Positions 16,602 to 45,962 of a stretch of DNA of 64,000 bases are shown one piece after another. Numbering within the stretch: position 1 is the first letter of the stretch; the number at the start of each line of letters is the position of its first letter. This stretch comes from Alphaproteobacteria bacterium. GTDB lineage: Bacteria > Pseudomonadota > Alphaproteobacteria > Rs-D84. The notes below the pieces were generated by a model. That model had not been told where the DNA came from and searched no databases. It saw nothing but the letters and a program-made list of their open reading frames with translations. A program made the translations under genes and the position numbers. The stretch lies in the NCBI GenBank assembly GCA_015062525.1, contig SUUM01000003.1, forward strand, positions 24,012 to 88,011, in the 5' to 3' direction.

Positions 16602-16610
16602 CAAAACACT

Positions 16611-17492: not shown

Positions 17493-17633
17493 AAAATGCC
17501 CCCTACGGGCATTATTTATTTTGGTTGTGCTCGTCATGCAATTCGCGAACTGAATTGGTAGATATTGGGCAAGAAATAATAGATTTTAAACATATTTCTA
17601 TGATATAATTGCAAACATATAAAAGGAGAAGAC

Positions 17634-17993
17634 ATGAAAAAATTATTTTTTATTTTGCCAATCATCACATTGGGTGCATGTGCCCAGGATTACAGCAAAT
17701 ATGATTCCATTTTTGAAGGTTGCGAAAGAATAGAAACGACCGAATTTCATCTGGTTTATAAATGTCCTGCGGATCAAGAATGGGCACAACAAGTAAAACA
17801 ATTACAACCAAACGGCAAATTTAGAGCTGGTGGTCAATTGAATTTGGAAGAATTATATGCTGATACAGAACATGTTTATGCAGAAGTATCATTTAATGAT
17901 CCTGGTGTCTGCAAAGAAGATTTTACAATTCGTACAATGATTGCAAAACCAGTCGAGGGTGGAGACAATTGGGCATTTATCGGTTGCAGATAA
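17634..17993 (+). CDS. Hypothetical lipoprotein (119 aa)
   Basis: Signal peptide plus lipobox (MKKLFFILPIITLGACAQ). RBS AAGGAG. Terminator hairpin at 18017-18042. Confidence 0.55.
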   Translation: MKKLFFILPIITLGACAQDYSKYDSIFEGCERIETTEFHLVYKCPADQEWAQQVKQLQPNGKFRAGGQLNLEELYADTEHVYAEVSFNDPGVCKEDFTIRTMIAKPVEGGDNWAFIGCR

Positions 17994-18368
17994 ACATCAT
18001 TATAAACCGAGTACGAAAGTGGTGGTTTTTCACCACTTTTTTAATTTCAACTTTCGAACTCGGTGGAAATTTATTTTTTTACTCTCTGGAATGCGCACGA
18101 GACCTTGATAAACAATAACCAACCGCGGGGCAAAAACTCTATCAAAAATATCCGTTTTTGCGCGGCCGCGTTTGTTCATCTGCGTATTCGCCATGCGCTT
18201 CGCTCTGGCGTATCCGTGCGCAATCAAAAATTAAACCGGCATAAAAGCCGGTTGAATTTTTGGTTGTGGTGCGTGGGCGAAACGCGAATTTTGATTGTAT
18301 AAAGTCGGATTTTATGGTACGATAAAAAAGTATACAAATAACTAATTATTGGGTAAAAAAGGATAAAA

Positions 18369-19202
18369 ATGACAAAACAGATGCCAGGTTTTCAAGATTA
18401 TAAAAACTCTAAAGAAGAAAAAATAAAGACAGAGCTAGATAAAAAAACAAAAGAAAATGAAAGACAAGAATTCCTTAAGATGCAATTAAAAAAATTTGGG
18501 ACTATATTCAAACATACCAGTAAAAAAGATTTGGCTTTTAATGATTTTTTAAGAACGTTTTTTCAGGTTCAAACAATATCTTTTTTAATTGGCAGTATGG
18601 CATTTCTTTTTTCGAGCCGTACACAGTTTGTTAATGATTATGGAAAAACAACGGGTGGTATTATTAATAATCCGTTGAATGAGATTTATGGTGACGATAT
18701 GTCTTATGGTCAAGCCATAAAAAATGCATATCTGCTTGAAGATTGGCGTAACGACAAAGGAGGTGTATTTCAAGGGATATGCGGTTTGTTAAGTATGATA
18801 ATTGCTTTGGTTTTAGCAACCCGTGAAGGTTCTCGTAAAGTAAAATCTAACATGATAAAATCAAGAACTATTTTGTTGCAATTGGATGAATTAAAAAAAT
18901 ATGGTATAGATGTAAAACAGTTAATTGAAAAATTAGGCCCAGGAGCAGAAAAACTTATTTCTGCAATGTCAGAGAAAGATAGGGGGTATTTTGATAATTT
19001 AGTTGCTGGGGGACTGGATAAAGCAAATTATGAAACGTGTGTTGCTATTGTGTCTGGTTATTTAAAATCACATCCTAAAGAATATGAAAAAGTTGTTGAA
19101 ATCATTGATGAAGCAACCTTGCCAGATGAAATCAAAAAGAAATACGGCAAAGGAAAAACGATTTCGTTTGATGCTGCTAGGGAGATATCGTCAGAAAGAT
19201 AA
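18369..19202 (+). CDS. Hypothetical membrane protein (277 aa; K/E-rich N-terminus, two TM segments), candidate secreted effector
   Basis: ORF with AAAAGGA RBS. TM segments ISFLIGSMAFLF and GICGLLSMIIALVLA. Terminator at 19213-19243. AT-rich composition differs from flanking housekeeping genes. Confidence 0.5.
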   Translation: MTKQMPGFQDYKNSKEEKIKTELDKKTKENERQEFLKMQLKKFGTIFKHTSKKDLAFNDFLRTFFQVQTISFLIGSMAFLFSSRTQFVNDYGKTTGGIINNPLNEIYGDDMSYGQAIKNAYLLEDWRNDKGGVFQGICGLLSMIIALVLATREGSRKVKSNMIKSRTILLQLDELKKYGIDVKQLIEKLGPGAEKLISAMSEKDRGYFDNLVAGGLDKANYETCVAIVSGYLKSHPKEYEKVVEIIDEATLPDEIKKKYGKGKTISFDAAREISSER

Positions 19203-19343
19203 AAATAAATTCAAACTCACCATCTTGGTGAGTTATTTATTTTCGCCCATGCACCACAACCACTTTGAACGATAATATCTGGCAGGGCGGGTTATTGTTA
19301 TAAAAATAATCTTTTTACTAGTCCGAAAGTAAAAAAGCCTTTC

Positions 19344-20444
19344 TTAATCAGAAATTTCTTCAACCATTTTATACAAGTCTTTAAATCTGTATATTGATGG
19401 GCTCTGACCAGTACCTCTTTCTTCTACTTCAAGAATTTTTTTATCTTCTAAGCTTTTTAACAGAGATCTTGCGGTACTTGCTTTAATTCCGGTTTTTTCT
19501 ATAAAATCGGTCGTTTTAAATTTAATTTGCTTAAACAAGAAGTTTAGTACAGGTATACAAAACTGTGTTTTTAAATCCGATATTTCTTCTTCCGTTTTTC
19601 TTCTGATTTCTTTTAATCGTCTAAGAGTGTTTGTTAATACAATGGTTTGTTGTTCTATCGCTGTTATGAAAAAATTAATCCAAGTTTGCCAGTCATTTTC
19701 TTTTGATATTTTTTCTAATGCATTGATGTATTTTGTTCTGTTTATAGAAAAATAATAACTTATATAAAAATATGGCGTAGATAAGATATTATATTTTTTT
19801 AAGAGTATCGGTATCAAAATACGACCAACTCTACCATTTCCGTCCTCAAAAGGGTGTATTAATTCAAAATACGCATGAATAATGGCAGTTTTTATTAAAA
19901 GGTTTTCTGAATGATTTGAGTTTATGAAGTCAATCAAGTTATTCATATATTCTTCTGTGTGCAAATATGATACGGGAGTATAAGTTATTTCTCCGTCATA
20001 TTTATTGCCAATATAATTTTGTTTTTCTTTATATTTCCCTTTTAATTTATCGCCACCCCTAGAATTCGTTAATATAATGGCCTGAATATTTTTAATCAAT
20101 CTACTCGTAATTTTAAAATTGTTATCTTCTGCTTCTTTTATGCAATAACCCAAAGCATCTTTATAATTTTCTATTTCTGTTGCGTCTTTTTCTAATCTTT
20201 CAGATAAATTCTTACCAACTTTATAGTTTAAGATATCTGTAATTGTGGCTATAGTACCTTCTAATCTTGAAGACATTACAGATTCTTGATAAAAAAGTAT
20301 ACTTGTTAATACTTCTGGATAAGGAATAAATTCTACCATGCCATCGTATTTAGCTAATTTCAATAAAGCACTATTAGTATTTTCAGAAAAAGATATATCT
20401 GTCAATATATCTGGAAATTTTTTTAATACAAAAGAATTTGTCAT
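19344..20444 (-). CDS. Fic family protein (AMPylator/FIDO fold), class II, with an N-terminal autoinhibitory SxxxEG motif and a C-terminal winged-helix domain
   Basis: Catalytic motif HPFEDGNGRVGR present. Inhibitory helix motif …MSSRLEGT… about 50 aa from the N-terminus. C-terminal ~80 aa are wHTH-like. Confidence 0.9.
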   Translation of the reverse strand: MTNSFVLKKFPDILTDISFSENTNSALLKLAKYDGMVEFIPYPEVLTSILFYQESVMSSRLEGTIATITDILNYKVGKNLSERLEKDATEIENYKDALGYCIKEAEDNNFKITSRLIKNIQAIILTNSRGGDKLKGKYKEKQNYIGNKYDGEITYTPVSYLHTEEYMNNLIDFINSNHSENLLIKTAIIHAYFELIHPFEDGNGRVGRILIPILLKKYNILSTPYFYISYYFSINRTKYINALEKISKENDWQTWINFFITAIEQQTIVLTNTLRRLKEIRRKTEEEISDLKTQFCIPVLNFLFKQIKFKTTDFIEKTGIKASTARSLLKSLEDKKILEVEERGTGQSPSIYRFKDLYKMVEEISD

Positions 20445-21918: not shown

Positions 21919-22581
21919 TTATACCGCATGCTTTTTCAACAAACTTTGCACCGCCAACGGAAAATCAGTCGCCCGCGCCAAATAAGACCCCGACACTAAC
22001 AAATCCGCCCCCGCGTCCCAACATAACTGGGCTGTTTTGTCGTTAATTCCCCCATCAACAGAAATTGTGAATTTCAAACCATACTTTTTACGCGTCGCGG
22101 CCATCACAGAAATCTTGTGCAACGCGCCCGGGTCAAATGCCTGCCCCGCCGCCCCCGGCGCAACAGACATAACCATAACCTCGTCCACATCGCGCAAAAT
22201 CGGCTTTAACAGCGCAACATTTGAATCTGGATGCAACGCCACCCCAACGCGTCGTCCCGCCGCACGCACATTACGCAACGCCGTCTTGAACCCGGACGTA
22301 TTGGTTGACAATATCACCGTATCTGCCCCCACCGCAATCGCATCCGCCGCCCACACAACCGGACTTTCAGTCATCAAATGCACATGCAAGTGCGCATTGG
22401 TTCGGGCACGAATATTTTTTAACTCGTCAATTCCACCGGCAATTCTGTCTACATAGAACCCATCCATAATATCAACATGAATCATAGAAATCCCACCCGA
22501 CTGAAACAGTGAATACGTTTCCGCCCGTCTCATATCAAAACATAAACTGCTGGGCAAAATCGGAATAAATCTTTGAACTTT
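21919..22581 (-). CDS. rpe: Ribulose-phosphate 3-epimerase domain, in frame with and directly continuing the ftsA reading frame (no own start codon; boundary approximate)
   Basis: …IPILPSSLCFDMRRAETYSLFQSGGISMIHVDIMDGFYVD… aligns with the Rpe N-terminus (IAPSILSADF…HFDVMDNHYVPN). C-terminal TIM-barrel motifs present (…SVDGGIN…). Confidence 0.75.
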   Translation of the reverse strand, partial: KVQRFIPILPSSLCFDMRRAETYSLFQSGGISMIHVDIMDGFYVDRIAGGIDELKNIRARTNAHLHVHLMTESPVVWAADAIAVGADTVILSTNTSGFKTALRNVRAAGRRVGVALHPDSNVALLKPILRDVDEVMVMSVAPGAAGQAFDPGALHKISVMAATRKKYGLKFTISVDGGINDKTAQLCWDAGADLLVSGSYLARATDFPLAVQSLLKKHAV

Positions 22582-23697
22582 CTTGGGCTTGCGATGGAAA
22601 ATTTTTCCAATCCAACTTGTACGTCGCGCCCAGCGTTCATGTCGCGAAATATAACTTTGCCTATGTGCCGATTCCCCATTCCAAACATAATCAGACAGCG
22701 CACGCACCGTTGCATCCGCCGACAGCACTTCGGTCATAACGGCAAATGCATTTTCAATAAAATCACGCAACCCTTCAATCTCGGCACCACCACCGGACAA
22801 AACAATCTTGGTCGGACGATATTTGGTAAAGGACGGCAAACATTGGTCCTTTAATTGCCCGATAATATCAACCAATATCGGCAACACAATGTCATTTACA
22901 TCCCCGCGCGAAAAATCATAGGCACGATCGGCGGGCGCAAATCGGTCCATTTCCTTGGGTACCAGGGATGCCACCGCACGTTTTATCCTGTCTGCAGAAT
23001 CAAAGTCTATATTTAACTTATCAACAATGGCGCGTGTAATATCCGTGCCACCCTTTTCTATTTTCGCATGCCAAACGGGGCCACGGTCGGTCCATATAGA
23101 CGCGCTTGTAAATTGGGCACCAAAATCAACGAACAACGTATTTTGTTTTTCTGCGCGCACAATTGCATTTTGTACAAATTGCGGATCAAACATAGCATCC
23201 GCCTGAATATGCGCGCCGCGCAACTTTTCAAATACCGCATCCACACCATCGCGCGAATAATAAATCACCCCAAACGCAGAAATCAACTGCCGGTCAACAT
23301 GTCCCAGGGGCGACACCATATTTCGCGCCTGGGGCGCATCATACCGCAGTGGCACAATATGCATTGGGAAAAATCCGTCCGCGGGTTTAATTTGCGAGAT
23401 TTGATTTCTAACATCCGTCATAGTAATCTTGTGTTCCCCACCCCAAACGGTACTTTTCGCACACATTTCATATTTTGATATACCAAAATTCCCCGTGATA
23501 AAGGCACTATCAAAATGGGAACCGATTTGTTTTTCCAATTCATCCACAACGGACTTAATCGCAAATACCGTATCATAACTGTCCATTGAAAAGAACGCAG
23601 ATTTATCAATCTTTGCGCTACGCACACGATGTGCAATACCACGCACACCACACGTGCCAATATCAAGACACAAAAAAGACGAATCAAATAAATTCAT
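22582..23697 (-). CDS. ftsA: Cell division protein FtsA (actin-like ATPase), lacking its own stop codon and reading through into rpe
   Basis: LDIGTCGVRGIA (phosphate 1), FVDFGAQFTSASIW, GGTDITRAI, IVLSGGGAEIEGL, and a C-terminal amphipathic membrane-targeting helix (WARRTSWIGKIFHRKPKK). ftsQ lies immediately upstream. Confidence 0.7.
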
Positions 23698-31091: not shown

Positions 31092-31661
31092 ATGAAATTC
31101 AAATTACTATATTTTGGCGACATTTTGATTAATCCGAAAAAGCGCGCCCAACATATTGCGGACATACGCATGCAGTTTCATCCACAACTAAAAAAACTGG
31201 TTGAACACAGTCCATGGAACAACCTGACGCAATACATGGTACCCGACCCAACAAAAAGCCCAATTACCACACGCCACGTTGGCGGGATTGATTGGAATCC
31301 AATTATTACACCAAATTTGAAATTGATTGCCGAATTAGACATTCAAATGTTGCACCCTGAAATTGTGGGTGTACCACGTTCGGACATTGACAACCGCGTC
31401 AAAACGATTATGGACGGTCTGCGTTGTCCACAAAACGAACATGAAATCGGGGCAAACACACCACGCGACAAGGGTCCGATTTACACACTTTTGGATGACG
31501 ACCATTTGATTACAAAATTATCTGTTAACACCAGCCACCTGCTGGATTCTGAAATCTTTGCAAATCATGCACAACGCACACCTGATTCCGTCTTTATGAT
31601 GATTGACGTGAACGTACGCGTTGCCGAAGGGACATTGGAAAACCTGCCATTTATGGTGTAA
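31092..31661 (+). CDS. Hypothetical protein (189 aa)
   Basis: ORF with AAAAAGGGG RBS, divergent from gyrB. No motif recognised. Confidence 0.45.
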   Translation: MKFKLLYFGDILINPKKRAQHIADIRMQFHPQLKKLVEHSPWNNLTQYMVPDPTKSPITTRHVGGIDWNPIITPNLKLIAELDIQMLHPEIVGVPRSDIDNRVKTIMDGLRCPQNEHEIGANTPRDKGPIYTLLDDDHLITKLSVNTSHLLDSEIFANHAQRTPDSVFMMIDVNVRVAEGTLENLPFMV

Positions 31662-31796: not shown

Positions 31797-32900
31797 TTAC
31801 GATAATGCGGACGTGATTTGGTCCTGCATCTGAAACGTCCCAAGCACCACCCAAGCGATTATGGCGGACACCAATAAAATCCCCAAACTGTTTAATGTAT
31901 TTGAAATCTTTTCCATCTTGCGCACAGACTCGTTCAAATAATCGTTTGCAACTTGATTCAGATTTTCATCAAACTCATTCATATCGGCATAAATTGTTAA
32001 ATCCCCAATAATTTCAGAATCTGGGAAATCGCGCCCGGTATGCGCCAATGCCCGCCCCAAGTTTTCCCCATTTGCGATATATTTTAATGCGCGTTCCAGA
32101 ATACTTTTCAAATATCTGTTCGCGCTATCCGCCAACATTCGCATAGCATCCGGGATTGCAACACCGGCACTTACCATTGCACCCAAACTCATCAGCCAAC
32201 CAACAGACACCTGAATTTTATACACACTCCACGGGGGTAATTTATCAAACATCGCACGCAGGCGCCCCGACCAGTTGGCCAGACTGACCCACACAACGGC
32301 AATTACCGATGCAAACACCACCAGGAAAATATACCAATACCGAATTGAAACATCAGACAACCACACCAAAGACTGCGCCGTCCCGCGCCAAACAACATCG
32401 CTGCCTGCGATTTCCGCCAATGGTGGCACCAAATATAATCCCACCATAATGATGATACCAAACGTTAACGCCAATAAAAACAGTGGATATCCAATCGCAG
32501 ACGTCATTGCCCGTCTGATACGTTGTGTACCATCAACCACACGTCCAACGTTTTCAAGTGCGACCACCAAATTAGATAAATTACCACTGGTCACCAACAG
32601 TGTTTCATTTTCCGGCACCCAACCACGTGTTGCCTCGGAAAAACTCATACCACGTTCCAGGTTTTTTTGCCATTCGCGCATAACAATTGCAAACGGTTCG
32701 CGCGGTTTTGTCCCCCCATGCGATTCAATCATTTCCAAACGTTCCAGCGCATCAATCAGCGTGAAATCATTACGCAACAAGGATGCCAATTTTCTACAAA
32801 TTGACATACGTTTTTCCGTATTCATCCGGAACATTAACTTGGCATATAATAATTCCAATTTATTCATATCAATATGCCCCCGGCTGGTCCAGTTGTCCAA
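31797..32900 (-). CDS. GspF/PilC-family inner-membrane platform protein (T2SS-F domain, 3 TM; BfpE/TcpE-sized)
   Basis: 367 aa. Two cytoplasmic ~130-aa helical domains, each followed by TM segments. Overlaps the upstream ATPase gene by 32 nt. Confidence 0.6.
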   Translation of the reverse strand: MDNWTSRGHIDMNKLELLYAKLMFRMNTEKRMSICRKLASLLRNDFTLIDALERLEMIESHGGTKPREPFAIVMREWQKNLERGMSFSEATRGWVPENETLLVTSGNLSNLVVALENVGRVVDGTQRIRRAMTSAIGYPLFLLALTFGIIIMVGLYLVPPLAEIAGSDVVWRGTAQSLVWLSDVSIRYWYIFLVVFASVIAVVWVSLANWSGRLRAMFDKLPPWSVYKIQVSVGWLMSLGAMVSAGVAIPDAMRMLADSANRYLKSILERALKYIANGENLGRALAHTGRDFPDSEIIGDLTIYADMNEFDENLNQVANDYLNESVRKMEKISNTLNSLGILLVSAIIAWVVLGTFQMQDQITSALS

Positions 32901-34503
32901 CCCAGCGTTCTAATTCATCAACACTAATTACACCTTGCAACATTAACGACACGGCGGCCTCTTTTAGCGTACGTCCATCCATTTCTTCTAACCAATAACG
33001 CACCGCCCCATCTGTATTACCTGATAATGCCAGACGCAAAAATTCACTGTTTGTGATGATAATTTCACCCGCTTTGACACGCCCAATATTGCCTGTACCA
33101 TTACAATGCGCGCATCCCGCACCACGTTGATATACCTGGCGCAGACCAACATCACCATACGCATCCATAACACGACGATACGCACCACGTTCTGGGTGAT
33201 TTGCCAATGGTTCGCGACAATGTGGACAAACCTTTTTGAACAGACGCATAGACACCAATCCACGCATCAATGTTTCTTCTTTTAATTTAAAGGATTCAAC
33301 CCCTAAATCCAACAATCGTGTCAGGGCCGCCATGGCTGAATTAGCATGCAATGTTGTCCAAACATTATGCCCCGACAACGCGCCACGCACGGTTAATTCC
33401 GCCGCCGCCAACGTACGAATTTCCCCCACCATAAGCGTATCAGGGTCGCTGCGCAACGCCGCCGCCAAGGCTTCGACATACTTTTCTTCACGTTGTTCTT
33501 CATTGGTTGCATTAACAACCGGCATCTGACGTGCGCCAAAAATCTTTTGTTCAACGGGGTTTTCCACCGTAATCATATTAATTTCATAGTTGCGTTCTTT
33601 CAGCATCAACGACATATTGCGTACCAACGTCGTTGACTTACCAGAACTGGTCGGCCCCGCCACAATCACCAAACCCGTCGGAAAGGAACGCATACGTGCC
33701 AACAAACGCTGTTCATAGGGGCCAAATTCTTGTTCAACCTTGATCCCTTCGGACGGATTATCATACAACAATCGCATAACCGCATATCGCGTACCAAACG
33801 CGATTGGGTTAAACTGCATACGCACGCCCAACACCCCCGATGGCAGGTATAAATCCTTGGTTCCACGCAATGGTGTACGACCATCCTTTTGCGCAGATTG
33901 ATATTCATTTACCGCATAGTTCGCATTGGAAATATCCGCCGATGCAAATGCTGCGCGCAGGAACGATTCCCCCCATTGGGAATTATATTCCATAACGGGC
34001 TGCATACTGCCGTCTATGCGGAAATATATTGTTGTCTGGTCTGCGACTTCGACATGAACGTCTGACACTTTTTGTGCGGCGGCCTTGGCGATAATATCAA
34101 CAAAATCCTTTTGCATCTGGTTATCAAAGTCCGCACGTCCGCGCCCTGCCCCCCCCAGATGACTTTCATATGATTTATAAATATGTGAAATTAATCCCAG
34201 GTCCGAATAAAACGGTTCACGCATTTTGCGATTACGTTTTTTCAGCAACTCTAAAAACGCCAGCACCCGTCCATCATATCGATGTGTACGCGATATAATA
34301 ATTTCCCCACCGGAAAAATACGCAACCAAACCCTGCGTATCATGTGGCAATTCAAACATTGCCCCGGTCGCGGTCAACAAACGATTTCCATTAGAAAACA
34401 AATAATCAATAATATCTTTGGAATCTGCACTTTCCAGTCCCGCCGGAATTGACGGCATACTTTGAAATTTGATATTATCAAAATCACTTGTTTTATTTGG
34501 CAT
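32869..34503 (-). CDS. GspE/PilB-family secretion/pilus-assembly ATPase with a C-terminal tetracysteine zinc motif
   Basis: Walker A GPTSSGKSTT, Asp/His boxes (…DPDTLMVGEIR…, VWTTLHANSA), and CPHC…CAHC zinc-knuckle motifs. Confidence 0.85.
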   Translation of the reverse strand: MPNKTSDFDNIKFQSMPSIPAGLESADSKDIIDYLFSNGNRLLTATGAMFELPHDTQGLVAYFSGGEIIISRTHRYDGRVLAFLELLKKRNRKMREPFYSDLGLISHIYKSYESHLGGAGRGRADFDNQMQKDFVDIIAKAAAQKVSDVHVEVADQTTIYFRIDGSMQPVMEYNSQWGESFLRAAFASADISNANYAVNEYQSAQKDGRTPLRGTKDLYLPSGVLGVRMQFNPIAFGTRYAVMRLLYDNPSEGIKVEQEFGPYEQRLLARMRSFPTGLVIVAGPTSSGKSTTLVRNMSLMLKERNYEINMITVENPVEQKIFGARQMPVVNATNEEQREEKYVEALAAALRSDPDTLMVGEIRTLAAAELTVRGALSGHNVWTTLHANSAMAALTRLLDLGVESFKLKEETLMRGLVSMRLFKKVCPHCREPLANHPERGAYRRVMDAYGDVGLRQVYQRGAGCAHCNGTGNIGRVKAGEIIITNSEFLRLALSGNTDGAVRYWLEEMDGRTLKEAAVSLMLQGVISVDELERWVGQLDQPGAY

Positions 34504-34508
34504 ATTGA

Positions 34509-35186
34509 TTATTTCCCACTGCTGACATTCAAATTCTGTGTTACGCCGTCTTTGTCAACGAACACAACACCATCATACAATGATATAGATTTCACCGTTA
34601 ACCCATCCAACGACTTTCCAACACTAATACGCTTAGATTGGCCTGTATTTAAATCTTCCACAGTCGCCTGTAATTGTGAGCCCGCCCCAACAACATTAAC
34701 CAAACGATATTTTTTTGTAATATCAATTTCCGGTTCTTCTTCTGCGGCTTCGGGCACAGACATGGCCTTTGCCATCTTTTGTTCTTCTATATTTGCTAAC
34801 CAAGATTCCTTTTCTTGTTCGATACGCGCGGCCTCGGCCTCTAACTTGGCCTTTTGTGTTTCAATTTCCTGTTGTTGCTGTTCTGCACGTCCCGACAAAG
34901 TATCAATTTCCATATGCAACTTGATTTTTTCGGCCGCTAATCTGTCCAATTCTAAATCCAATTGGGCGCGTTCCTTTTCCAATTGCATAAGAACCTTTTC
35001 CTGTTCCAAATCAGTAATTTGTTGGAACAGCGACCCCGACACATCATAACCAGCGACCGCATCCGCCGATACTTCTTCCATATCGACATCAACTTCTACA
35101 ACTTCATCTACTGCGGCAAACGCGCTTGAAACCGCACCACAAAAAATCAACCCCAATAAAAACATTTTCTTATTTTGCATAGACAA
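34509..35186 (-). CDS. Periplasmic coiled-coil protein (GspM/PilO-like by position), signal or anchor at the N-terminus
   Basis: 225 aa. Hydrophobic N-terminus MFLLGLIFCGAVSSAFA, then a long heptad-repeat region (LEQEKVLMQLEKERAQLDLELDRLAAEKIKL…). Confidence 0.5.
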   Translation of the reverse strand: MSMQNKKMFLLGLIFCGAVSSAFAAVDEVVEVDVDMEEVSADAVAGYDVSGSLFQQITDLEQEKVLMQLEKERAQLDLELDRLAAEKIKLHMEIDTLSGRAEQQQQEIETQKAKLEAEAARIEQEKESWLANIEEQKMAKAMSVPEAAEEEPEIDITKKYRLVNVVGAGSQLQATVEDLNTGQSKRISVGKSLDGLTVKSISLYDGVVFVDKDGVTQNLNVSSGK

Positions 35187-36483
35187 TCACCTCATAGTTC
35201 CAAGAACGCGAACGCACATCCCATGATGCCTGCATCATATATACGCCGCCAAATTCATCAAATATTTTCATAAACTGCATCGGCACCAGTTTTGATTCCG
35301 CGCCAACCTCTACCACATTAACAGACGCAGTATCAACCCCGTTTGTTAACGTATCAACAACAACCAAAGTTTCAACATTTGTATCAATTCCCTGAAATGC
35401 AGTCGTAATATCACGCACAACCGTATCTGGGTCGCGTTCATCCTGGGACGAAAACACTTCCAATGTCGGCAGGGTTGCCCGCACACGAATTGTATCTTCA
35501 TCAATTTCACTTACAAAGGCCCCCGGCATCAACTGTGTTGCAATATTATAAAATTCACCAATTGTTCCAAAACTGCGAACAAATTCCGCCACAACATGCG
35601 TTTCGCCACAGGTTGCATAAACCTGATTCCAACCTGCAATCGGTTGCATAACAAAACCAATTGCCTGATAACATTGTTCTGCCCGCGCCATCACATCCGG
35701 CAACAATTCATACGGCATAACAATTGGCTCGGGCGGTAATTCTTTTTCTATTTCAAACTGCTCGTCTAACTTTTTGCTGCTTTCTTCTATCTGACGTTTA
35801 TATTCCGCCACCAATTCTGGATCCAATTCTGCCACTTTTGGGCGCGGACTAAGTGTCTGAACAATAGAATCATGAAATATCAGCGCCAATCCAAAAATAA
35901 ACACCCCAATCAGAACAGCGGACACCATCCCCGCACCAAAGCGACTGATTGAATGTAATACAACATTATTGCGTGCCACCAACAAATCCGCAAGATTACG
36001 TTCCGCCGCCCGCGGCATACCCCACGCACCTGGTGCAAAAAACGCCCCCCAGTCTGGAATTTCTGATAACTTGACATATTCCTTGCGTGCTTCGTCTTCG
36101 GATTCGAACACACTGTCTTCCAGAATAATTCCATTACGTGCCGCGACTAAATAGAATTTTTTTCCCATCGCAAACACCGCCAAAAAAGATGTATATTCTG
36201 AAAAACTGTTCATCACGGCAACGGCGGCAACATGCATTCCCGCCCGCACACCATTTTTACGCGCCGCCAACCCAACCATTTCGCGGTATTCAGTATATAA
36301 ACTTAATTTTTTATCAATATTACGCGACAAATTGCGTGCATAATTGCGCGCAGTAAATCCCGCAGAAACAGGTTGCCAAAACAACCCGACCGCATACTTC
36401 TTACGATTAACAGATATAGTCTGACTGGCCAAGTAAATTCTCTCTCTGAATATTCTGTTGTAAATTATAACACAAAATCCCAA
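35170..36483 (-). CDS. Bitopic inner-membrane assembly protein (GspL/BfpC-like topology: ~190-aa cytoplasmic domain, 1 TM, ~220-aa periplasmic domain)
   Basis: 437 aa with a single central TM (MVSAVLIGVFIFGLALIF). First gene of a four-gene overlapping operon ending with the GspF-like gene. Confidence 0.45.
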   Translation of the reverse strand: MGFCVIIYNRIFRERIYLASQTISVNRKKYAVGLFWQPVSAGFTARNYARNLSRNIDKKLSLYTEYREMVGLAARKNGVRAGMHVAAVAVMNSFSEYTSFLAVFAMGKKFYLVAARNGIILEDSVFESEDEARKEYVKLSEIPDWGAFFAPGAWGMPRAAERNLADLLVARNNVVLHSISRFGAGMVSAVLIGVFIFGLALIFHDSIVQTLSPRPKVAELDPELVAEYKRQIEESSKKLDEQFEIEKELPPEPIVMPYELLPDVMARAEQCYQAIGFVMQPIAGWNQVYATCGETHVVAEFVRSFGTIGEFYNIATQLMPGAFVSEIDEDTIRVRATLPTLEVFSSQDERDPDTVVRDITTAFQGIDTNVETLVVVDTLTNGVDTASVNVVEVGAESKLVPMQFMKIFDEFGGVYMMQASWDVRSRSWNYEVIVYAK

Positions 36484-36540
36484 ACGATAGCAAACGAATA
36501 TTCACCCACCCCCACCCACACGATAAACAAAAATTTATAT

Positions 36541-36703
36541 TAGTGTAAGTGGTTAGTGTAAGTGATTAGTGGCGGCACTATAATGTGCGGCATTCGCCGC
36601 ACACATCCACTAACCACTTGCACTTGCACTAACCACTAAACTTTTATTTATCGCGGTATTATTTATTCATTAACTGCACTCTGAACTCTGCACTCTGAAC
36701 ACT
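36541..36703. repeat. Full-length copy of a composite palindromic dispersed repeat. Imperfect 32-bp inverted arms (tagtgtaagtggttagtg… / …cactaaccacta) flank a GC palindrome, followed by the module cttttatttatcgcggtattatttattcattaactgcactctgaactctgcactctgaacact.
   Basis: Partial copies occur at 2845-2880, 42481-42548, 43224-43260, 46437-46475 (inverted) and 49994-50040. Confidence 0.8.
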
Positions 36704-36731
36704 AAAAAATCCCCGCTCCGCGGGGATTTTT
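36704..36731 (-). terminator. Hairpin terminator (aaaaatccccgctccgcggggattttt) after the OMP gene
   Basis: 10-bp stem and a T-run on the minus strand. Confidence 0.55.
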
Positions 36732-37712
36732 CTAAAACTCGAATCTAAGTCCCAACATTGCATTAACATAGAACAAATTTTCCGCACTAAACCATTCACG
36801 ATGTTTTGTGCCATCTTCATTGGACAGTTCCCACTTTACCCGCGGAATATACATCGCCCGCACACCGAAATCCATGAACATAGTCTCGCTCAGCCCATAT
36901 GAAAATCCCAACGCCACCAATCCCACAACATTTGATGTGTTATATTCTGATTTATAAAAACGAATTAAATTAGAATTATCCACAAAATCACCATACGGCC
37001 ATAAATCGGTTTGCTCGGACAAATCGCCATATGGATCCGACATATTCAATATTGTTTTTGTATCTGCATACCCAACACCAAATCCAATATACGGTATCAT
37101 TTGATACATCGGCTTATACAACCCGTCAAAGAAATCGTAAAATGCCATCGCACTGATAACATCGGTTGATATTTTGGACTGCACAGATGCACTTTGTATA
37201 TCTACCACAACCCCCCTTACATCGCCACCAACCAATTCCAATTCACCATCAAACATAGGCGACGCATTATAATCACTTTCCGAAATATGGTCCCATCCGG
37301 CTTCTAATCGCCATTGTGGCCTGTTTGATATTGTCCAACCGATACTGGCACCGGCTGCAAAAGAAAACCCTTCAAAATCTTTACTGGGGCTAACCTTACT
37401 TAAATCACCATACCCCGCATACAAATACCCATCACAGTTTTCACACTGATCATAATACATTCCCGTCACAACTGTACTCAGGTCCGGACTGATAAAATAT
37501 TCATTTACGACCGCACCAACTTCGTTTTTGACAGTTCCCATCCCAAATGCGGCACCACCACGCGCCGAAATTACAAAGCGCGAACCATCATCGGCATACC
37601 AACCATCCCCAACATATTCCCCGGGATATTGCCACCCTGCGGCCGCGGGCACGGTCATCAGACATGATAAAACGGTCAAAGCAAATAAATTTCTTTTTCT
37701 CATACCCCACAT
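36732..37712 (-). CDS. Outer-membrane beta-barrel protein (porin-like; C-terminal …LGLRFEF)
   Basis: Signal peptide MRKRNLFALTVLSCLMTVPAAA. Aromatic-rich alternating beta pattern and terminal Phe. The ORF-track start at 37727 is a TTG, so an internal ATG is preferred. Confidence 0.6.
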   Translation of the reverse strand: MWGMRKRNLFALTVLSCLMTVPAAAGWQYPGEYVGDGWYADDGSRFVISARGGAAFGMGTVKNEVGAVVNEYFISPDLSTVVTGMYYDQCENCDGYLYAGYGDLSKVSPSKDFEGFSFAAGASIGWTISNRPQWRLEAGWDHISESDYNASPMFDGELELVGGDVRGVVVDIQSASVQSKISTDVISAMAFYDFFDGLYKPMYQMIPYIGFGVGYADTKTILNMSDPYGDLSEQTDLWPYGDFVDNSNLIRFYKSEYNTSNVVGLVALGFSYGLSETMFMDFGVRAMYIPRVKWELSNEDGTKHREWFSAENLFYVNAMLGLRFEF

Positions 37713-37755
37713 TATATCACAAACCAACCCCTAATAAAAATGAAATATATTCCAT

Positions 37756-37782
37756 AAAAAAATCCCCGTTTGGGGATTTTTT
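37756..37782 (-). terminator. Hairpin terminator (aaaatccccgtttggggatttt) after the lipoprotein gene
   Basis: 9-bp stem plus a T-run. Confidence 0.55.
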
Positions 37783-38188
37783 AATTACACTTTCCATATG
37801 TACAATCCGTCGGCACAGACACAGTCGCCACCCCACCATCACGTGCGGTACGAACGCTGTTTGGATGTGGACAATCATACACATTTGCAACCAATACGAA
37901 TGCGCGTTCCGGTCCAAATATTACCCATTCATTTGGTTTGGTACGCTGGCTGGTAATCCAATATGCATTACCTGGACGCGCCTGGTCCACGATACGATTT
38001 TCCAAATATCTGCGTGCATCTTCGGCGGCATAAACCGACACTTCGGATTCTAACTTATACAAAAAAGTACATCCAATCGGTTCCGCATCTAACTGTACTA
38101 AATACTGACTGCCATTTTCATTTTTAACCATATTCCCGCACGCCGCAACAGACAACAAAACGGCAAAAATCGCCAAGAACTTTTTCAT
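37781..38188 (-). CDS. Hypothetical lipoprotein (135 aa)
   Basis: Lipobox MKKFLAIFAVLLSVAACGN. Confidence 0.55.
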   Translation of the reverse strand: MKKFLAIFAVLLSVAACGNMVKNENGSQYLVQLDAEPIGCTFLYKLESEVSVYAAEDARRYLENRIVDQARPGNAYWITSQRTKPNEWVIFGPERAFVLVANVYDCPHPNSVRTARDGGVATVSVPTDCTYGKCN

Positions 38189-42612: not shown

Positions 42613-43227
42613 TTATTTACACTTTTTTAATTCCTCGCCTGATTCCATTCTATCGATTTGTTTATTTTTTATTTCCACATCTGCAAAGATTTTTTGTTTT
42701 ACCAACACAACATCTGGGTGCGATTGCAATTGCATATTCATATCATCAACCACCGAATCAATCATATCGCGTGATTTAACAAATTGTGGCATAACAGATT
42801 GCGCCGCACTATAAACAGACTTTTGTAATTCCCCCTTGAAATCATCAATCACAGACAAATAAGTTTTTATATGTTTATCTTCGTGCGCTAACACCGCATT
42901 ATATTCACATGTTTCTGGAACATTACGAATATCGATATTTACCACAAAATCATTATATCCAACCACCGCATTAACGGATTTTAGCCCAACACAAAACCCA
43001 CCATCAACCGGCACAACATCTGCATTAATCTGATAATTATCAACCATAGTCGCGACAACATTACCATGCAATTTGTCCATTTCATGACGTGGTTGCACTA
43101 TGGTCTTATTCCAATCCGGTACATTAATATAGACGGCGGGAATTTTTTTATACGCCACACAATCCACCGCCAACCCCGGCAAAGATACAAGAATACAAAA
43201 AACAAAAAATAAATATTTCACCACCAC
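42613..43227 (-). CDS. Secreted hypothetical protein immediately downstream of virB4 (possible VirB5/TrbJ-like minor pilus protein)
   Basis: 204 aa with a signal peptide (VVKYLFFVFCILVSLPGLA). GTG start embedded in a copy of the dispersed repeat. 19 nt after the virB4 stop, so the same operon. Confidence 0.4.
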   Translation of the reverse strand: MVVKYLFFVFCILVSLPGLAVDCVAYKKIPAVYINVPDWNKTIVQPRHEMDKLHGNVVATMVDNYQINADVVPVDGGFCVGLKSVNAVVGYNDFVVNIDIRNVPETCEYNAVLAHEDKHIKTYLSVIDDFKGELQKSVYSAAQSVMPQFVKSRDMIDSVVDDMNMQLQSHPDVVLVKQKIFADVEIKNKQIDRMESGEELKKCK

Positions 43228-43245
43228 TAACCACTTACACTAACA

Positions 43246-45669
43246 CTAACCACTCTTTTTCAAATATTCATTAACAAAATTATTACCATACATTTTATAC
43301 AATTCTTCGGCCAGCAATACTGACGAACGTCCCGATTCAAACAACCGCAACAAATTCCCCAAACCACCAAGTTCTGTATTCAAAATCACCGATTCCCCAT
43401 TAACCGGTCGCGACAACAACACCGCGCGTTTCAGGTTTGGATATGCCTTGCCCTGGATAAATGCCATTTCCAACGGGTTCAAATTCCAATGCGCATAGTC
43501 TGATGCATCGGCGGCGGGATTTCTGAAAAACATAACAGTCTGGGCCTGGCCACGCACCACATCCCCTACCCCCAATTTATCAAGGACATTAGCACGTTGG
43601 AATGCAACCATGTACGCCTGGCGATTTTTGCGTCCTTCTTGCAATCCTGTAATAAAATTATCACGGAACATTTTGTTTTCCAGCATTGGCGCCGTTTCGT
43701 CAATCATAATCAGCGACGGATTACCACCCGACACAGTAATATTATTAATTCTGTGTAATATATAAGAAATCACCGCAGGCGACAAAACTTCGTCCTGTAA
43801 AATATCTGTGAAATCGAACGTGGTCAGACGCGAATGCAAATCCAACGTATCGGACGCTTCGTTAAACATATCGCCATACTGTAATGGGTCAACCCATTTT
43901 TTAAGTGCCGCCCGCATATTCCCCGACGACGAAAAACAACTTTCCCACAGGTTTTTCAGCATTCTATCTTTATCGGACAAATAGTCAAAATTTACAGACA
44001 CCGCACGCGCAATTTCATCCGCAGATGCGGCATCACTTTGCCCTGAAATAATTGCAAACCACCGACGCAGAAACGCACGATTTGCCGCCGTATCCGGCAT
44101 TTTCAGCGGATTTAAGTGGGTCAAGAAACTTTGTGCCATTGGGTCTGAATTTTTCTCTTTCCCCTGCATGGTGATGTACTTTCCACCCACGGCCAGCGTG
44201 AAAATCTCGGCGCCTTTATTTCTGTCAAAGAAAAACGCCTTTAACTTTGGATGACGCAAACTTTGCGCGATTAAAAATGAAAACAATGTTGTTTTACCAC
44301 CACCTGTTGGCCCAATTGTCAATGTATGTCCAACGGCCGCCGGCTTATCAGACACATGGAATTGAAATTGATACGGAGTCCCCTGGGCGGTTGGAAATAC
44401 AACCAATGGTCCCGGTCCCCAATCCGAGTTTTCAACACCCCGCGGTTGCGTTGACATAGGTATTGAAATTGCCGCCGCACGCGATAACAATTTGAAACTG
44501 CGCGGAAATACATTAAACCCAGGAATCTGTGCAAACCAAGAAACCTTGGACGCGAATGTTTCAACAACCGGTGAAATACCGAACTGGGCTGCGATTTTTT
44601 TAAATTCATCAACATATTTTTGTAAATCTTCGCGCGTCGCACCAAATAATACAAACAGCGGGTAATAATCAACCAAACTTTGATTACCACTCAGATTTTC
44701 ATCCATGGCATTTTGCGCCTCGGAAATTTGTGTTTCGGTTGAATCCCGTCTTTCATCATCTGCGGTCGAACGCTTTTTACGTATAGTACTTTCAACATCC
44801 GCCGCGCCCATAATATGAAAACCATTCATGGCAATCATTTCTGTTTGAATTGTTGACACACTATCAAAAAATTCTTCATCCAGATAATCCGGCGAAATTT
44901 TAAAAGACAAACACGCGGCAAAAGATTGTTCCCCACCACTTATATATCTAATAATACCATCACGCAAAAATTCAACATCATCAACGGTTGTAAGTTTTGC
45001 AATATTGTTATCGGCACGTTTTGGTGCGGGCTTAGAAATCGGCGACAAAATCCGTCCAAAGAAACGCGCCATATTATCCACGCTGTCATTTTTCAACACC
45101 ACCGGTTTATACGCCGCCAAAATAGATTCTATATAATTACCATATTGATTCAGTTTTGCCCGCGCATCCACCCCAGCAACAGACACCACTATATAATAAT
45201 TATTCAAAAATATTTTTAATCCCTGCCCGCGCCATTTATCATAAATGCGTTGCAATGTCGGCTGATCAAATTCATAGTTTGTATTTTCATCCGCCGCATC
45301 ACGCACCATATAAAACCGCAACACTACATTCGGGTCGCGAATCTGATTAAACAATTGCGCCCGCAAATCCAAGAATTTTTCTTTTGTCGCATCATCTTGC
45401 ATACTGGTCTGGACACCTGCTACGCGATAAACTCGAATTAAACTGCCGTCTGTCAACTGCATAGAATTATCAGTGAACACGGTCCCGAATGGCAAATAGC
45501 TGGAATATTTCGCATAACCAAATTTTGGGAAAATTTTTCGCGTCAGTGCCGGCACATACATCATCAGCACCAGAAACAAGCACAACGCCGCCAGCACCAA
45601 AACCATCAACGTAATTGGGAATCCGCTGCCTGCAAAGTATTCAAAAAAACCGTTTAAATTTTCAATCAT
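43246..45669 (-). CDS. virB4: Type IV secretion system ATPase VirB4/TrbE
   Basis: 807 aa. Walker A GPTGGGKTT, Walker B region (…LIMIDETAPML), N-terminal membrane segment. Overlaps virB3 by 4 nt. Confidence 0.9.
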   Translation of the reverse strand: MIENLNGFFEYFAGSGFPITLMVLVLAALCLFLVLMMYVPALTRKIFPKFGYAKYSSYLPFGTVFTDNSMQLTDGSLIRVYRVAGVQTSMQDDATKEKFLDLRAQLFNQIRDPNVVLRFYMVRDAADENTNYEFDQPTLQRIYDKWRGQGLKIFLNNYYIVVSVAGVDARAKLNQYGNYIESILAAYKPVVLKNDSVDNMARFFGRILSPISKPAPKRADNNIAKLTTVDDVEFLRDGIIRYISGGEQSFAACLSFKISPDYLDEEFFDSVSTIQTEMIAMNGFHIMGAADVESTIRKKRSTADDERRDSTETQISEAQNAMDENLSGNQSLVDYYPLFVLFGATREDLQKYVDEFKKIAAQFGISPVVETFASKVSWFAQIPGFNVFPRSFKLLSRAAAISIPMSTQPRGVENSDWGPGPLVVFPTAQGTPYQFQFHVSDKPAAVGHTLTIGPTGGGKTTLFSFLIAQSLRHPKLKAFFFDRNKGAEIFTLAVGGKYITMQGKEKNSDPMAQSFLTHLNPLKMPDTAANRAFLRRWFAIISGQSDAASADEIARAVSVNFDYLSDKDRMLKNLWESCFSSSGNMRAALKKWVDPLQYGDMFNEASDTLDLHSRLTTFDFTDILQDEVLSPAVISYILHRINNITVSGGNPSLIMIDETAPMLENKMFRDNFITGLQEGRKNRQAYMVAFQRANVLDKLGVGDVVRGQAQTVMFFRNPAADASDYAHWNLNPLEMAFIQGKAYPNLKRAVLLSRPVNGESVILNTELGGLGNLLRLFESGRSSVLLAEELYKMYGNNFVNEYLKKSG

Positions 45670-45962
45670 GCTGCTAACTTCCCTGGTATTTTACGTTTTA
45701 ACAATTGAATTTTTGCGGTGATAATCTGTCCGACCTGCGGGTCTCGTTTTGAATAAATAGCCATAATTGAATGAACAATTATCACAGAAATTAAAAAAAA
45801 CATCGGATTTACAGGATTTGCCCCTTTTGTAATAATCAGGGACGCCACAAACAAAACAATCCAAATCAGGAATTGAATAACAAAATTCAGCACCGCCAGC
45901 GAATAAGGCACATAAAAAATATGCGCCGGATTTGCCAATGCTTTTAATACCTGCTGTTTCAT
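45666..45962 (-). CDS. virB3: Type IV secretion system protein VirB3/TrbD
   Basis: 98 aa with two TM helices (LAVLNFVIQFLIWIVLFVASLII; MFFLISVIIVHSIMAIY). Immediately upstream of, and overlapping, virB4. Confidence 0.7.
   Translation of the reverse strand: MKQQVLKALANPAHIFYVPYSLAVLNFVIQFLIWIVLFVASLIITKGANPVNPMFFLISVIIVHSIMAIYSKRDPQVGQIITAKIQLLKRKIPGKLAA

What the first reader, a model, noticed from the sequence alone, without database searches (positions are those of the whole stretch)
31797..36483. Four-gene GspE/GspF-type ATPase-platform operon with no pilin, prepilin peptidase or secretin: a minimal, possibly divergent type IVb-pilus/T2SS-like machine
Four genes with overlapping start/stop codons encode, in order: a GspL/BfpC-like bitopic protein, a periplasmic coiled-coil protein, a GspE/PilB ATPase with a tetracysteine zinc motif, and a BfpE/TcpE-sized GspF platform. 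Within the 64-kb window there is no prepilin-like ORF (no G/FTLIE N-terminus), no prepilin peptidase and no adjacent secretin. For a lineage with an intracellular-style genome this is an unusual, stripped-down fibre-assembly or secretion core. The accessory proteins are not recognisable by simple motifs and may represent novel components.
Basis: partly seen in the sequence, partly recalled or inferred. Interest (0 to 1): 0.7.

Follow-up and report, generated by a model that had tools for sequence, protein, structure and literature searches.

The report
Dispersed type IVb pilus motor operon
These four genes are the inner-membrane motor of an ordinary type IVb pilus in a tiny-genome gut bacterium (Candidatus Enterousia); its pilin genes lie elsewhere in the genome, so it is a scattered known machine, with only the outer-membrane pore and the pilin-processing enzyme still unlocated.

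Summary
The four minus-strand genes are real and tightly packed. They are pilO2 (Pfam PAP_PilO), pilP (TIGR03021), a BfpD/PilQ2-type extension ATPase with an invariant Cys4 site, and a two-domain T2SSF platform. This is the order found at the centre of R64/Tfp7/BFP-type type IVb pilus loci.

The window comes from Candidatus Enterousia (order Rs-D84), a gut alphaproteobacterium reported to have a genome under 1 Mb. The cluster keeps the same order in all 80 species-level genomes fetched. Median identity of the ATPase is 87%, against 92% for GyrB and 73% for LpxC.

The window holds no pilin, A24 peptidase or secretin. However, the genus encodes a conserved 152-aa type IVb pilin (G|RSLIE) after dnaX, and a separate operon with three 400-450-aa prepilin-like proteins. 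In three relatives these lie on the same contig as the ATPase. I could not show them in the window's own genome.

Sister lineages (ATPase 47-54% identical) keep a complete operon: 367aa-TcpQ-secretin-PilO-PilP-ATPase-platform, followed by a pilin where the flank was read.

So this is a fragmented type IVb pilus, not a minimal pilin-less machine. I could not test genome-wide whether the secretin, TcpQ, peptidase and PilT were moved or lost. Interest is moderate to low.

The parts
35170..36432 (-). pilO2-like bitopic assembly protein, 420 aa. It has a cytoplasmic N-terminal domain, a hydrophobic stretch at about residues 157-194 that I take to hold a single membrane span, and a periplasmic C-terminal domain. 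The longest ORF extends to 36483.
   Evidence: PF06864 PAP_PilO, E = 6e-8. Full-length tblastn matches to genes annotated 'type 4b pilus protein PilO2'. hhalign probability 99.3-99.6% to PilO2 of Bosea and of the sister lineages. Hydrophobic segment. Called start.
34509..35180 (-). pilP-like periplasmic protein, 223 aa. It has a signal peptide, a helix of about 90 residues and a small C-terminal beta domain.
   Evidence: TIGR03021 pilP_fam, E = 1.5e-8, 35.6 bits against a cut-off of 34.65. hhalign probability 92% to the protein at the same position in the sister-lineage operon. The single-sequence AF2 model gives helix 48-140 at pLDDT above 90 and a low-confidence beta domain at 158-217. The fold search was not significant; PilP and GspC-HR chains appear only among the weak hits.
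32869..34503 (-). Type IVb pilus extension ATPase (PilQ2/BfpD/TcpT class), 544 aa, with a Cys4 zinc site.
   Evidence: PF00437, E = 1.8e-61. Best solved relative is BfpD at 264 bits over residues 36-531, against about 154 bits for PilF and GspE. Best plasmid hits are type IVb ATPases at 32-36% identity. Motifs and invariant cysteines.
31797..32867 (-). Platform protein (PilR2/BfpE/GspF class), 356 aa, with two T2SSF domains.
   Evidence: PF00482, two stretches, E = 3e-26. 42-46% identical to the platform of the sister-lineage type IVb operons.
36464..36493 (-). Promoter-like site in front of pilO (TTGCTA, 18 nt, TG-TATAAT). It lies downstream of the omp326 terminator at 36705-36731.
   Evidence: This is a consensus match only, not shown to be functional.
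37781..38188 (-). Conserved 135-aa lipoprotein of unknown function. In most species it sits 100-200 bp upstream of pilO. It is a possible but unproven accessory gene.
   Evidence: Position relative to pilO. Median 79% identity over 66 species. No similarity to TcpQ, secretin or pilins.

Best explanation
The cluster is the inner-membrane assembly core (PilO2-PilP-ATPase-platform) of a chromosomal, vertically inherited type IVb pilus of the R64 thin-pilus/Tfp7/BFP kind. The host is Candidatus Enterousia (order Rs-D84), a gut alphaproteobacterium reported to have a genome under 1 Mb.

Mechanism, inferred from the homologous systems. The hexameric Cys4 ATPase is held at the membrane by the cytoplasmic domain of PilO2. 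It drives the polytopic platform, which lifts processed pilins out of the inner membrane into a growing fibre. PilP, with its long coiled coil and C-terminal beta domain, spans the periplasm towards an outer-membrane channel.

Substrates. They are encoded elsewhere in the genus: a 152-aa type IVb pilin (leader MKxxSG|RSLIE) directly after dnaX, followed by an OmpA-type lipoprotein, and a separate operon with three 400-450-aa prepilin-like proteins that probably act as tip or adhesin subunits.

Origin. The cluster is what remains in place of an ancestral operon (367aa-TcpQ-secretin-PilO-PilP-ATPase-platform, followed by pilin and PilT genes in the sister loci whose flanks were read). That operon has been broken up in this reduced genome.

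Likely role, inferred. Attachment to a partner or host cell by a metabolically dependent bacterium.
For: - Family assignments.
- The gene order matches the centre of annotated type IVb loci on Bosea and E. coli plasmids and the published N2-O2-P2-Q2-R2-S2 order (PMC3984277).
- Organism and genome size.
- Conservation: all 80 species loci keep pilO-pilP-pilQ-pilR together. Median identities are ATPase 87%, platform 82%, PilP 70%, PilO 65%, against GyrB 92% and LpxC 73%. Catalytic motifs are intact.
- Pilins in the genus: class III signal peptides in L026 and L037. The pilin family comprises 350 clusters of about 152 aa among those listed. The dnaX-pilin-OmpA locus and the 451-406-438-175-154 operon are conserved.
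- Same contig as the ATPase: about 11.5 kb apart in JAZLBQ010000026.1, about 86.5 kb apart in JAZTWM010000007.1, and about 1.5 kb upstream of pilO in L037. L026 shows the same prepilin-like ORFs at matching positions. In MAG E7008 the two genes share one assembly's locus tags, E7008_03690 and E7008_04320.
- Pilin fold: the model (pLDDT 85) matches only type IVb pilins (TcpA, the ETEC type IVb pilin, CofA) at significant E-values, with PilS a weaker hit.
- Sister lineages: the complete operon appears in L093 and L094 and in every one of the 80 metagenome loci long enough to show it. G|RSMVE pilins were found in most of the longer ones, and one of these pilins is a PF08805 PilS match (E = 2.6e-17).
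Against: - No secretin, TcpQ, A24 prepilin peptidase or PilT-like ATPase was found in the window or in about 1.75 Mb of largely redundant Enterousia DNA. This was tested by tblastn for all four and by profile HMMs for secretin, TcpQ, the 367-aa protein and PilT.
- The 80 best secretin loci from metagenomes all belong to sister lineages.
- The pilin locus was not shown in the window's own genome. It is absent from the window and from the 10 kb beyond its right end.
- The PilP assignment rests on a score barely above the cut-off, and the structure model of its beta domain is poor.
- No expression data and no imaging exist.
Confidence: 0.8

Rival explanations
1. This is a truly secretin-less type IVb derivative. 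Enterousia lost TcpQ, the secretin and PilT. The retained motor then either assembles a fibre that crosses the outer membrane by another route (for example a different outer-membrane protein, or the neighbouring T4SS outer-membrane complex) or works as a periplasmic piston.
For: - In every sister-lineage locus, TcpQ and the secretin directly precede pilO. In most of the 66 Enterousia species where both genes could be placed, a 135-aa lipoprotein and lpxC sit there instead.
- No match to secretin, TcpQ or the 367-aa protein appeared in any Enterousia DNA in hand, even with profile HMMs at E up to 10.
- None of the 80 best metagenome secretin loci is of Enterousia type.
Against: - Only an estimated 15-20% of a genome could be examined (my estimate, not computed).
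- The pilin genes show that this lineage scatters pilus genes, so relocation of the secretin is plausible.
- PilP, whose homologues dock on secretins, is kept under purifying selection, with a nearly invariant C-terminal beta domain.
- Three large adhesin-like minor pilins imply a fibre exposed on the surface.
- 268 further secretin-positive metagenome stretches were found but not shown.
Confidence: 0.15
2. The system works mainly as a secretion or uptake device rather than an adhesive pilus. It would resemble a T2SS, or the secretion of TcpF and CofJ by type IVb pili, or a DNA-uptake machine.
For: - The ATPase and platform also match GspE and GspF models.
- Type IVb pili with large minor pilins are known to secrete proteins (my own knowledge: TcpB/TcpF and CofB/CofJ).
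- The organism is reported to lack nucleotide and amino-acid synthesis and standard transporters (PMC12306168), so uptake of macromolecules would be useful to it.
Against: - GspE and GspF equivalog cut-offs are missed by a wide margin: 212 against 630 bits, and 75 against 424 bits.
- No GspC, D, G-K or M was found.
- The accessory proteins, the pilin fold and the synteny are all type IVb.
- No ComEA, ComEC or secreted-substrate gene was seen next to the loci.
- This rival concerns the output of the machine, not its identity, and it does not exclude adhesion.
Confidence: 0.1
3. The cluster is a decaying, non-functional remnant of a former mobile-element type IVb pilus locus.
For: Type IVb pili of the R64 kind are usually carried on plasmids or ICEs. 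A virB3-virB4 fragment lies about 7 kb away. Several expected genes are missing from the locus.
Against: - All four ORFs are intact in 80 species, and the ATPase is nearly as conserved as GyrB.
- Catalytic and zinc-site residues are invariant.
- The published genomes show no accumulation of pseudogenes (PMC12306168).
- The flanks are housekeeping genes with conserved synteny.
Confidence: 0.03

Closest known systems
R64 thin pilus / Burkholderia pseudomallei Tfp7 / PAPI-1 type IVb pilus (PilN2-O2-P2-Q2-R2-S2, with TcpQ2 and PilT2)
   Same: Same core order: PilO2 (PF06864), PilP (TIGR03021), Cys4 ATPase, platform. The pilin of the sister lineage is PilS/bundlin-type. As in PAPI-1 and Tfp7, no prepilin peptidase lies in the operon.
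   Different: Here the core is chromosomal, flanked by gyrB and lpxC, and vertically inherited in a genome reported to be under 1 Mb. The secretin, TcpQ, pilin and PilT genes are not adjacent. Sequence identity is low: ATPase about 32-36%, PilO about 21-25%. No shufflon-type PilV was seen.
EPEC bundle-forming pilus (BfpB/G secretin, BfpC, BfpD, BfpE, bundlin)
   Same: BfpD is the best solved relative of the ATPase, including its N-terminal domain. BfpC is a PF06864-type bitopic partner (PMC3984277). The pilin fold class is type IVb.
   Different: BFP is a single 14-gene plasmid operon that includes its own peptidase (BfpP), retraction ATPase (BfpF) and secretin. None of these is present at this locus.
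Uncharacterised type IVb operon of sister gut Alphaproteobacteria (loci L093-L174)
   Same: Closest relatives outside the genus: ATPase 47-54%, platform 42-46%, PilO 22-32% identical. They share the unusual pilin N-terminus G|RS(L/M)(I/V)E and have virB4 within about 10 kb.
   Different: They keep 367aa-TcpQ-secretin upstream of pilO. Where the downstream flank was read, they also keep pilin and PilT-like genes. Their ATPases carry N-terminal extensions of about 100-250 aa that Enterousia lacks.
Type II secretion system (GspC-M)
   Same: It uses the same ATPase, platform and bitopic-anchor principle. GspL and GspC are functional analogues of PilO2 and PilP.
   Different: All Gsp equivalog cut-offs are missed. 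No GspD, GspC, GspM or pseudopilin set was found. The pilin fold is type IVb.
Scattered rvh type IV secretion genes of Rickettsiales (comparison from my own knowledge, not tested here)
   Same: A multi-gene envelope machine whose genes are spread among housekeeping genes in a reduced alphaproteobacterial genome.
   Different: It is a different machine (VirB/D T4SS). The comparison covers only genome organisation.

Membership tests
Type IVb pilus (R64/Tfp7/BFP kind) | Extension ATPase of the BfpD/PilQ2/TcpT clade with intact Walker, Asp and His boxes and a Cys4 site | tested here: met
Type IVb pilus (R64/Tfp7/BFP kind) | Polytopic platform protein with two T2SSF domains, encoded next to the ATPase | tested here: met
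   the 1-nt gap to the ATPase gene follows from the called gene starts.
Type IVb pilus (R64/Tfp7/BFP kind) | PilO2/BfpC-type bitopic protein (PF06864) | tested here: met
   32.3 bits against a gathering score of 26.7; full-length matches to annotated PilO2; hhalign 99%.
Type IVb pilus (R64/Tfp7/BFP kind) | PilP-family periplasmic protein (TIGR03021) | tested here: met
   35.6 bits against a cut-off of 34.65; syntenic homologue in the sister operon, hhalign 92%. The structure test was inconclusive.
Type IVb pilus (R64/Tfp7/BFP kind) | Type IVb major pilin with a class III signal peptide | tested here: inconclusive
   Absent from the window. Present and conserved in the genus, on the same contig as the ATPase in three MAGs, with a fold that matches TcpA, CofA and PilS. 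Not shown for the window's own genome.
Type IVb pilus (R64/Tfp7/BFP kind) | Outer-membrane secretin (PilN2/BfpB/TcpC), usually with TcpQ or a pilotin | tested here: inconclusive
   Not found in the window, in the 10-kb flanks of 80 species, or in the pilin loci. Present next to pilO in sister lineages. A whole-genome search was not possible.
Type IVb pilus (R64/Tfp7/BFP kind) | A24 prepilin peptidase somewhere in the genome | not testable with these tools
   None in the window or in the fetched loci. The conserved G(-1)/E(+5) pilin leaders imply that one exists. It also lies outside the operon in PAPI-1, Tfp7 and the sister lineages.
Type II secretion system | GspE and GspF equivalogs together with GspC, D, G-K, L and M | tested here: not met
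   GspE 212 against 630 bits; GspF 75 against 424 bits. No other Gsp family was found in the window.
Type IVa pilus | PilB and PilC equivalogs, the PilMNOPQ alignment complex and a type IVa pilin | tested here: not met
   PilB 193 against 675 bits. The accessory protein is PF06864, not PF04350. The pilin fold is type IVb.
Tad/Flp pilus (the name PGAP gives to several orthologues) | TadA-type ATPase, TadB/C, RcpA, Flp pilin and TadV | tested here: not met
   The closest TadA-named NCBIfam model, TIGR03819 ('TadA family conjugal transfer-associated ATPase'), scores 32 against a cut-off of 373 bits. No Tad or Rcp genes were found. The 'TadA' names are over-general annotation.

The most novel reading that the evidence does not exclude
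Candidatus Enterousia has discarded the TcpQ-secretin module and the retraction ATPase of its ancestral type IVb pilus, yet keeps the motor, PilP, one pilin and three giant minor pilins under strong selection. The fibre would then cross, or act beneath, the outer membrane by a route not known for any type IV filament system. Candidates are the neighbouring T4SS outer-membrane complex or the OmpA-type lipoprotein that always follows the pilin gene. The machine would serve an obligate cell-to-cell parasitic lifestyle.
Probability: 0.15. Interest if true: 0.7.

Novelty: new member of a known kind. Interest (0 to 1): 0.35.

Why it matters
Enterousia (order Rs-D84) is a widespread uncultured gut lineage. 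About 295 species-level genomes carry this ATPase. The published analysis reports a genome under 1 Mb, no respiration and no biosynthesis of amino acids or nucleotides, and suggests that the cells depend on a partner (PMC12306168). That paper mentions pili only for another lineage.

A type IVb pilus motor nearly as conserved as GyrB, together with one pilin and three adhesin-sized minor pilins, uses roughly 1% of the gene count. It is a concrete candidate for the organelle that mediates partner or host contact, and a target for enrichment, imaging and metatranscriptomic work.

For specialists in type IV filaments, it is a chromosomal, vertically inherited and fragmented type IVb pilus with a clear unfragmented outgroup. 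That makes it a natural case for asking which parts of the machine can be dispensed with or relocated.

Tried and rejected
- Prepilin search in the window by regular expression and by tblastn: negative.
- lipo135, orf189 and orf204 as hidden TcpQ, pilotin, secretin fragment or pilin: hhalign probabilities at or below 1%. Rejected.
- omp326 as a substitute outer-membrane channel: present only in the window and three closest relatives. It is not part of the conserved system.
- The Cys-rich proteins of 745 and 685 aa near the pilin locus as divergent secretins: no Pfam support and no secretin-like features. Rejected.
- Metagenome scan with a secretin alignment: the 80 loci returned were all sister-lineage seven-gene operons, so the scan says nothing about Enterousia.
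- Profile HMMs for secretin, TcpQ, the 367-aa protein and PilT against all Enterousia ORFs in hand: negative. The PilT profile hit only the main ATPase.
The single-sequence PilP model was too poor for a significant fold match.
- Extending 10 kb past the right end of the window did not reach the pilin locus.
- Cluster look-up did not identify the pilin of the window's own sample.
- The 2023 Enterousia paper is not held, and no supplements were available for PMC12306168.
- Literature searches for pili in Rs-D84 found nothing specific.

Full report
**Observation**

The interval 31797-36483 holds four co-directional minus-strand ORFs. Gene calls on the source contig give 420, 223, 544 and 356 aa. 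The source is JGI 3300031555, Ga0318466_10000070, 432 kb; a window coordinate plus 287,424 gives the contig coordinate.

Its 36483 start lies inside a promoter-like site (TTGCTA, 18 nt, TG-TATAAT at 36493-36464). That site follows a perfect terminator at 36705-36731 belonging to the upstream gene. With the called starts, pilO and pilP overlap by 11 nt. The other two junctions are gaps of 5 nt and 1 nt. The packing is operon-like, but 'overlapping start/stop codons' holds strictly for one junction only.

**What the four proteins are**

| Gene | Best family match |
|---|---|
| 1 | Pfam PF06864 PAP_PilO, E = 6e-8, above the gathering score |
| 2 | NCBIfam TIGR03021 pilP_fam, 35.6 bits against a cut-off of 34.65 |
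| 3 | PF00437 T2SSE, E = 1.8e-61 |
| 4 | PF00482 T2SSF, two stretches |

- The best solved relative of the ATPase is BfpD, the extension ATPase of the EPEC type IVb bundle-forming pilus. It scores 264 bits over residues 36-531, against about 154 bits for PilF and GspE.
- GspE, PilB and the closest TadA-named model all miss their equivalog cut-offs by a wide margin.
- The Walker A, Asp, Walker B and His boxes are intact. The four cysteines (CPHC at 426, CAHC at 464) are invariant in all 78 rows of the aligned orthologue set.
- Gene 1 matches plasmid genes annotated 'type 4b pilus protein PilO2' over its full length. By hhalign it aligns at 99% probability to PilO2 of Bosea and of the sister lineages.
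- Gene 2 has a signal peptide, a confidently predicted helix of about 90 residues and a small C-terminal beta domain. It aligns at 92% probability to the protein at the same position in sister-lineage operons. The fold search on the poor single-sequence model was not significant, although PilP and GspC-HR chains recur among the weak hits.
- The order O2-P2-ATPase-platform is the centre of annotated type IVb loci on Bosea and E. coli plasmids: TcpQ-secretin-PilO2-hyp-ATPase-platform-PilT and beyond. It is also the published order for R64, Tfp7 and PAPI-1 (PMC3984277).

The two accessory proteins are therefore known components, not new ones.

**Organism and conservation**

The ATPase is 82-97% identical to genes in MAGs named Candidatus Enterousia or 'Alphaproteobacteria bacterium' from ruminant, human and bird guts. 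In the species-dereplicated genome collection, 295 stretches encoded a relative.

Enterousia (order Rs-D84) is reported to have genomes of 0.75-1.0 Mb, without respiration, TCA cycle, flagella or most biosynthesis, and is proposed to depend on a partner. That paper mentions type IV pili only for another lineage (PMC12306168).

In all 80 loci fetched, the four genes stay together in the same order, between lpxC-lipo135 and orf189-gyrB. The few incomplete cases are cut by contig ends.

| Protein | Median amino-acid identity to the window |
|---|---|
| GyrB | 92% |
| ATPase | 87% |
| Platform | 82% |
| LpxC | 73% |
| PilP | 70% |
| LpxK | 70% |
| PilO | 65% |

The cluster is functional and under strong constraint. 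It is not a decaying remnant.

**What is missing from the window, and where some of it is**

- No called gene in the window, or in the 10 kb beyond its right end, has a pilin, A24 peptidase or secretin domain.
- Regular-expression and tblastn searches of the window are negative.
- tblastn with an E. coli type IVb pilin gave one weak hit, in locus L037. Reading it revealed a textbook prepilin, MKSQSG|RSLIEVIGVLAITGV....
- A scan of all loci found three prepilin-like ORFs each in L026 and L037.
- The 152-aa pilin defines a family of 350 clusters at 90% identity; the listed members are about 152 aa.
- Its context is conserved. On the plus strand it reads 103aa-dnaX-pilin-OmpA-type lipoprotein. 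Diverging from it is an operon of 451-, 406-, 438-, 175- and 154-aa genes, whose first three products carry RG|xxxx(E/Q) class III leaders.
- The pilin and the ATPase share a contig in three MAGs: about 11.5 kb apart in JAZLBQ010000026.1, about 86.5 kb apart in JAZTWM010000007.1, and about 1.5 kb upstream of pilO in L037. L026 shows the same ORFs at matching positions. In MAG E7008 the two genes carry locus tags of one assembly.
- An AF2 model of the pilin, built on 67 sequences with pLDDT 85, matches only type IVb pilins at significant E-values: TcpA, the ETEC type IVb pilin and CofA, with PilS as a weaker hit.

The machine is therefore not pilin-less. Its genes are dispersed. I could not show the pilin locus in the window's own genome.

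**Ancestral state**

A search of 50%-identity cluster representatives shows the nearest non-Enterousia ATPases at 45-56% identity, then a drop to 40% or less. These belong to other gut Alphaproteobacteria.

Their loci are 367aa-TcpQ-secretin-PAP_PilO-PilP-ATPase-platform. A metagenome scan with the secretin returned 80 loci. Every one long enough shows this seven-gene operon. Most of the longer loci have one or more pilins with the N-terminus G|RSMVEMLGVLAIIG downstream. Of the two loci examined for it, L113 and L136 both carry a PilT-like ATPase, and the L136 pilin is a PF08805 PilS match at E = 2.6e-17.

The unusual G|RS(L/M)(I/V)E start is shared with the Enterousia pilin, which ties the dispersed pilin to this machine. 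Many of these loci also have virB4 7-10 kb upstream, and L136 has virB2-virB3-virB4 there. The window has virB3-virB4 about 7 kb upstream of pilO.

**Unresolved**

TcpQ, the secretin, the 367-aa protein, an A24 peptidase and a PilT-like ATPase were not found in the window or in 1.75 Mb of largely redundant Enterousia DNA. All were tested by tblastn. Profile HMMs built from the sister-lineage families were run for secretin, TcpQ, the 367-aa protein and PilT. By my estimate, not computed, this covers only 15-20% of a genome.

- The conserved G(-1)/E(+5) leaders imply that a prepilin peptidase exists. Its absence from the operon is normal for PAPI-1, Tfp7 and the sister lineages.
- Retention of PilP, and of three adhesin-sized minor pilins, argues that an outer-membrane channel exists somewhere.
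- I put about 0.15 on true loss of the secretin.

**Mechanism (inferred from homologous systems, not shown here)**

1. PilO2 anchors the hexameric Cys4 ATPase at the inner membrane.
2. ATP hydrolysis drives the platform, which extracts leader-cleaved pilins from the membrane and adds them to the base of the fibre.
3. PilP bridges towards the outer-membrane channel.
4. The large minor pilins probably prime assembly and form an adhesive tip, as TcpB, CofB and PilV do in other type IVb pili (my own knowledge).
5. In an organism that depends on a partner, the likely role is attachment to a partner or host cell. Secretion or uptake of macromolecules are possible additional outputs.

**Verdict**

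This is a new member of a known kind, in a lineage where it has not been described. Interest is moderate to low, unless a whole-genome search shows the secretin to be truly absent.

Noticed in passing
window 42613-45962 (-): virB3 45666-45962, virB4 43246-45669, orf204 42613-43227: An isolated fragment of a type IV secretion system (VirB3, VirB4 and an unknown secreted 204-aa protein) sits among housekeeping genes about 7 kb upstream of pilO. In many sister-lineage loci virB4 lies 7-10 kb upstream of the complete type IVb pilus operon on the opposite strand, and L136 has TrbC/VirB2 x2-VirB3-VirB4 there. The linkage of the two systems therefore looks older than the genus.
   Followed up: partly
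window 31092-31661 (+): orf189, convergent with pilR, has no Pfam or NCBIfam match. Its median identity over 58 species is 92%, as high as GyrB. It shows no similarity to any type IVb pilus component tested.
   Followed up: partly
window 37781-38188 (-): A 135-aa lipoprotein with conserved cysteines lies 100-200 bp upstream of pilO in most Enterousia species. This is the position that TcpQ-secretin occupies in sister lineages, but the protein shows no detectable similarity to either. Its function is unknown.
   Followed up: partly
window 36732-37727 (-), terminator 36705-36731: A 326-aa beta-barrel-type outer-membrane protein with a perfect intrinsic terminator is inserted between lipo135 and pilO. 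It occurs only in the window and its three closest relatives (L001-L003).
   Followed up: yes
window 36521-36653: An imperfect palindrome of about 135 nt, built from short AGTG/TTAGTG-type repeats, lies between the omp326 terminator and the pilO promoter-like site. It is unique in the window. It could be a scar of the insertion or a regulatory element.
   Followed up: partly
window 21919-23697 (-): A 592-aa product carries both FtsA and ribulose-phosphate 3-epimerase Pfam hits, which suggests an apparent FtsA-Rpe fusion.
   Followed up: no
window 13498-20444: The region holds a 1020-aa autotransporter (13498-16560), followed by a low-GC stretch (GC 0.32-0.38 at 16-20 kb) with unannotated ORFs, a Fic-domain gene (19344-20444) and a small GIY-YIG gene nearby. 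This may be an acquired island.
   Followed up: no
L092 5078-7315 (about 1.7-3.9 kb beyond the window's right end); L088 11179-13236: Secreted, cysteine-rich proteins of 745 and 685 aa with no Pfam match are 38% identical to each other. In other species the 685-aa form sits next to the pilin-OmpA pair.
   Followed up: partly
L088 3442-3969 and 2981-3445 (Enterousia minor-pilin operon): The operon of three prepilin-like genes ends with two further genes. One encodes a 175-aa protein with an MJ0042-type zinc ribbon, a membrane span and an FxLYD/DUF3426 domain. The other encodes a 154-aa secreted protein. Both are conserved partners of unknown role.
   Followed up: no
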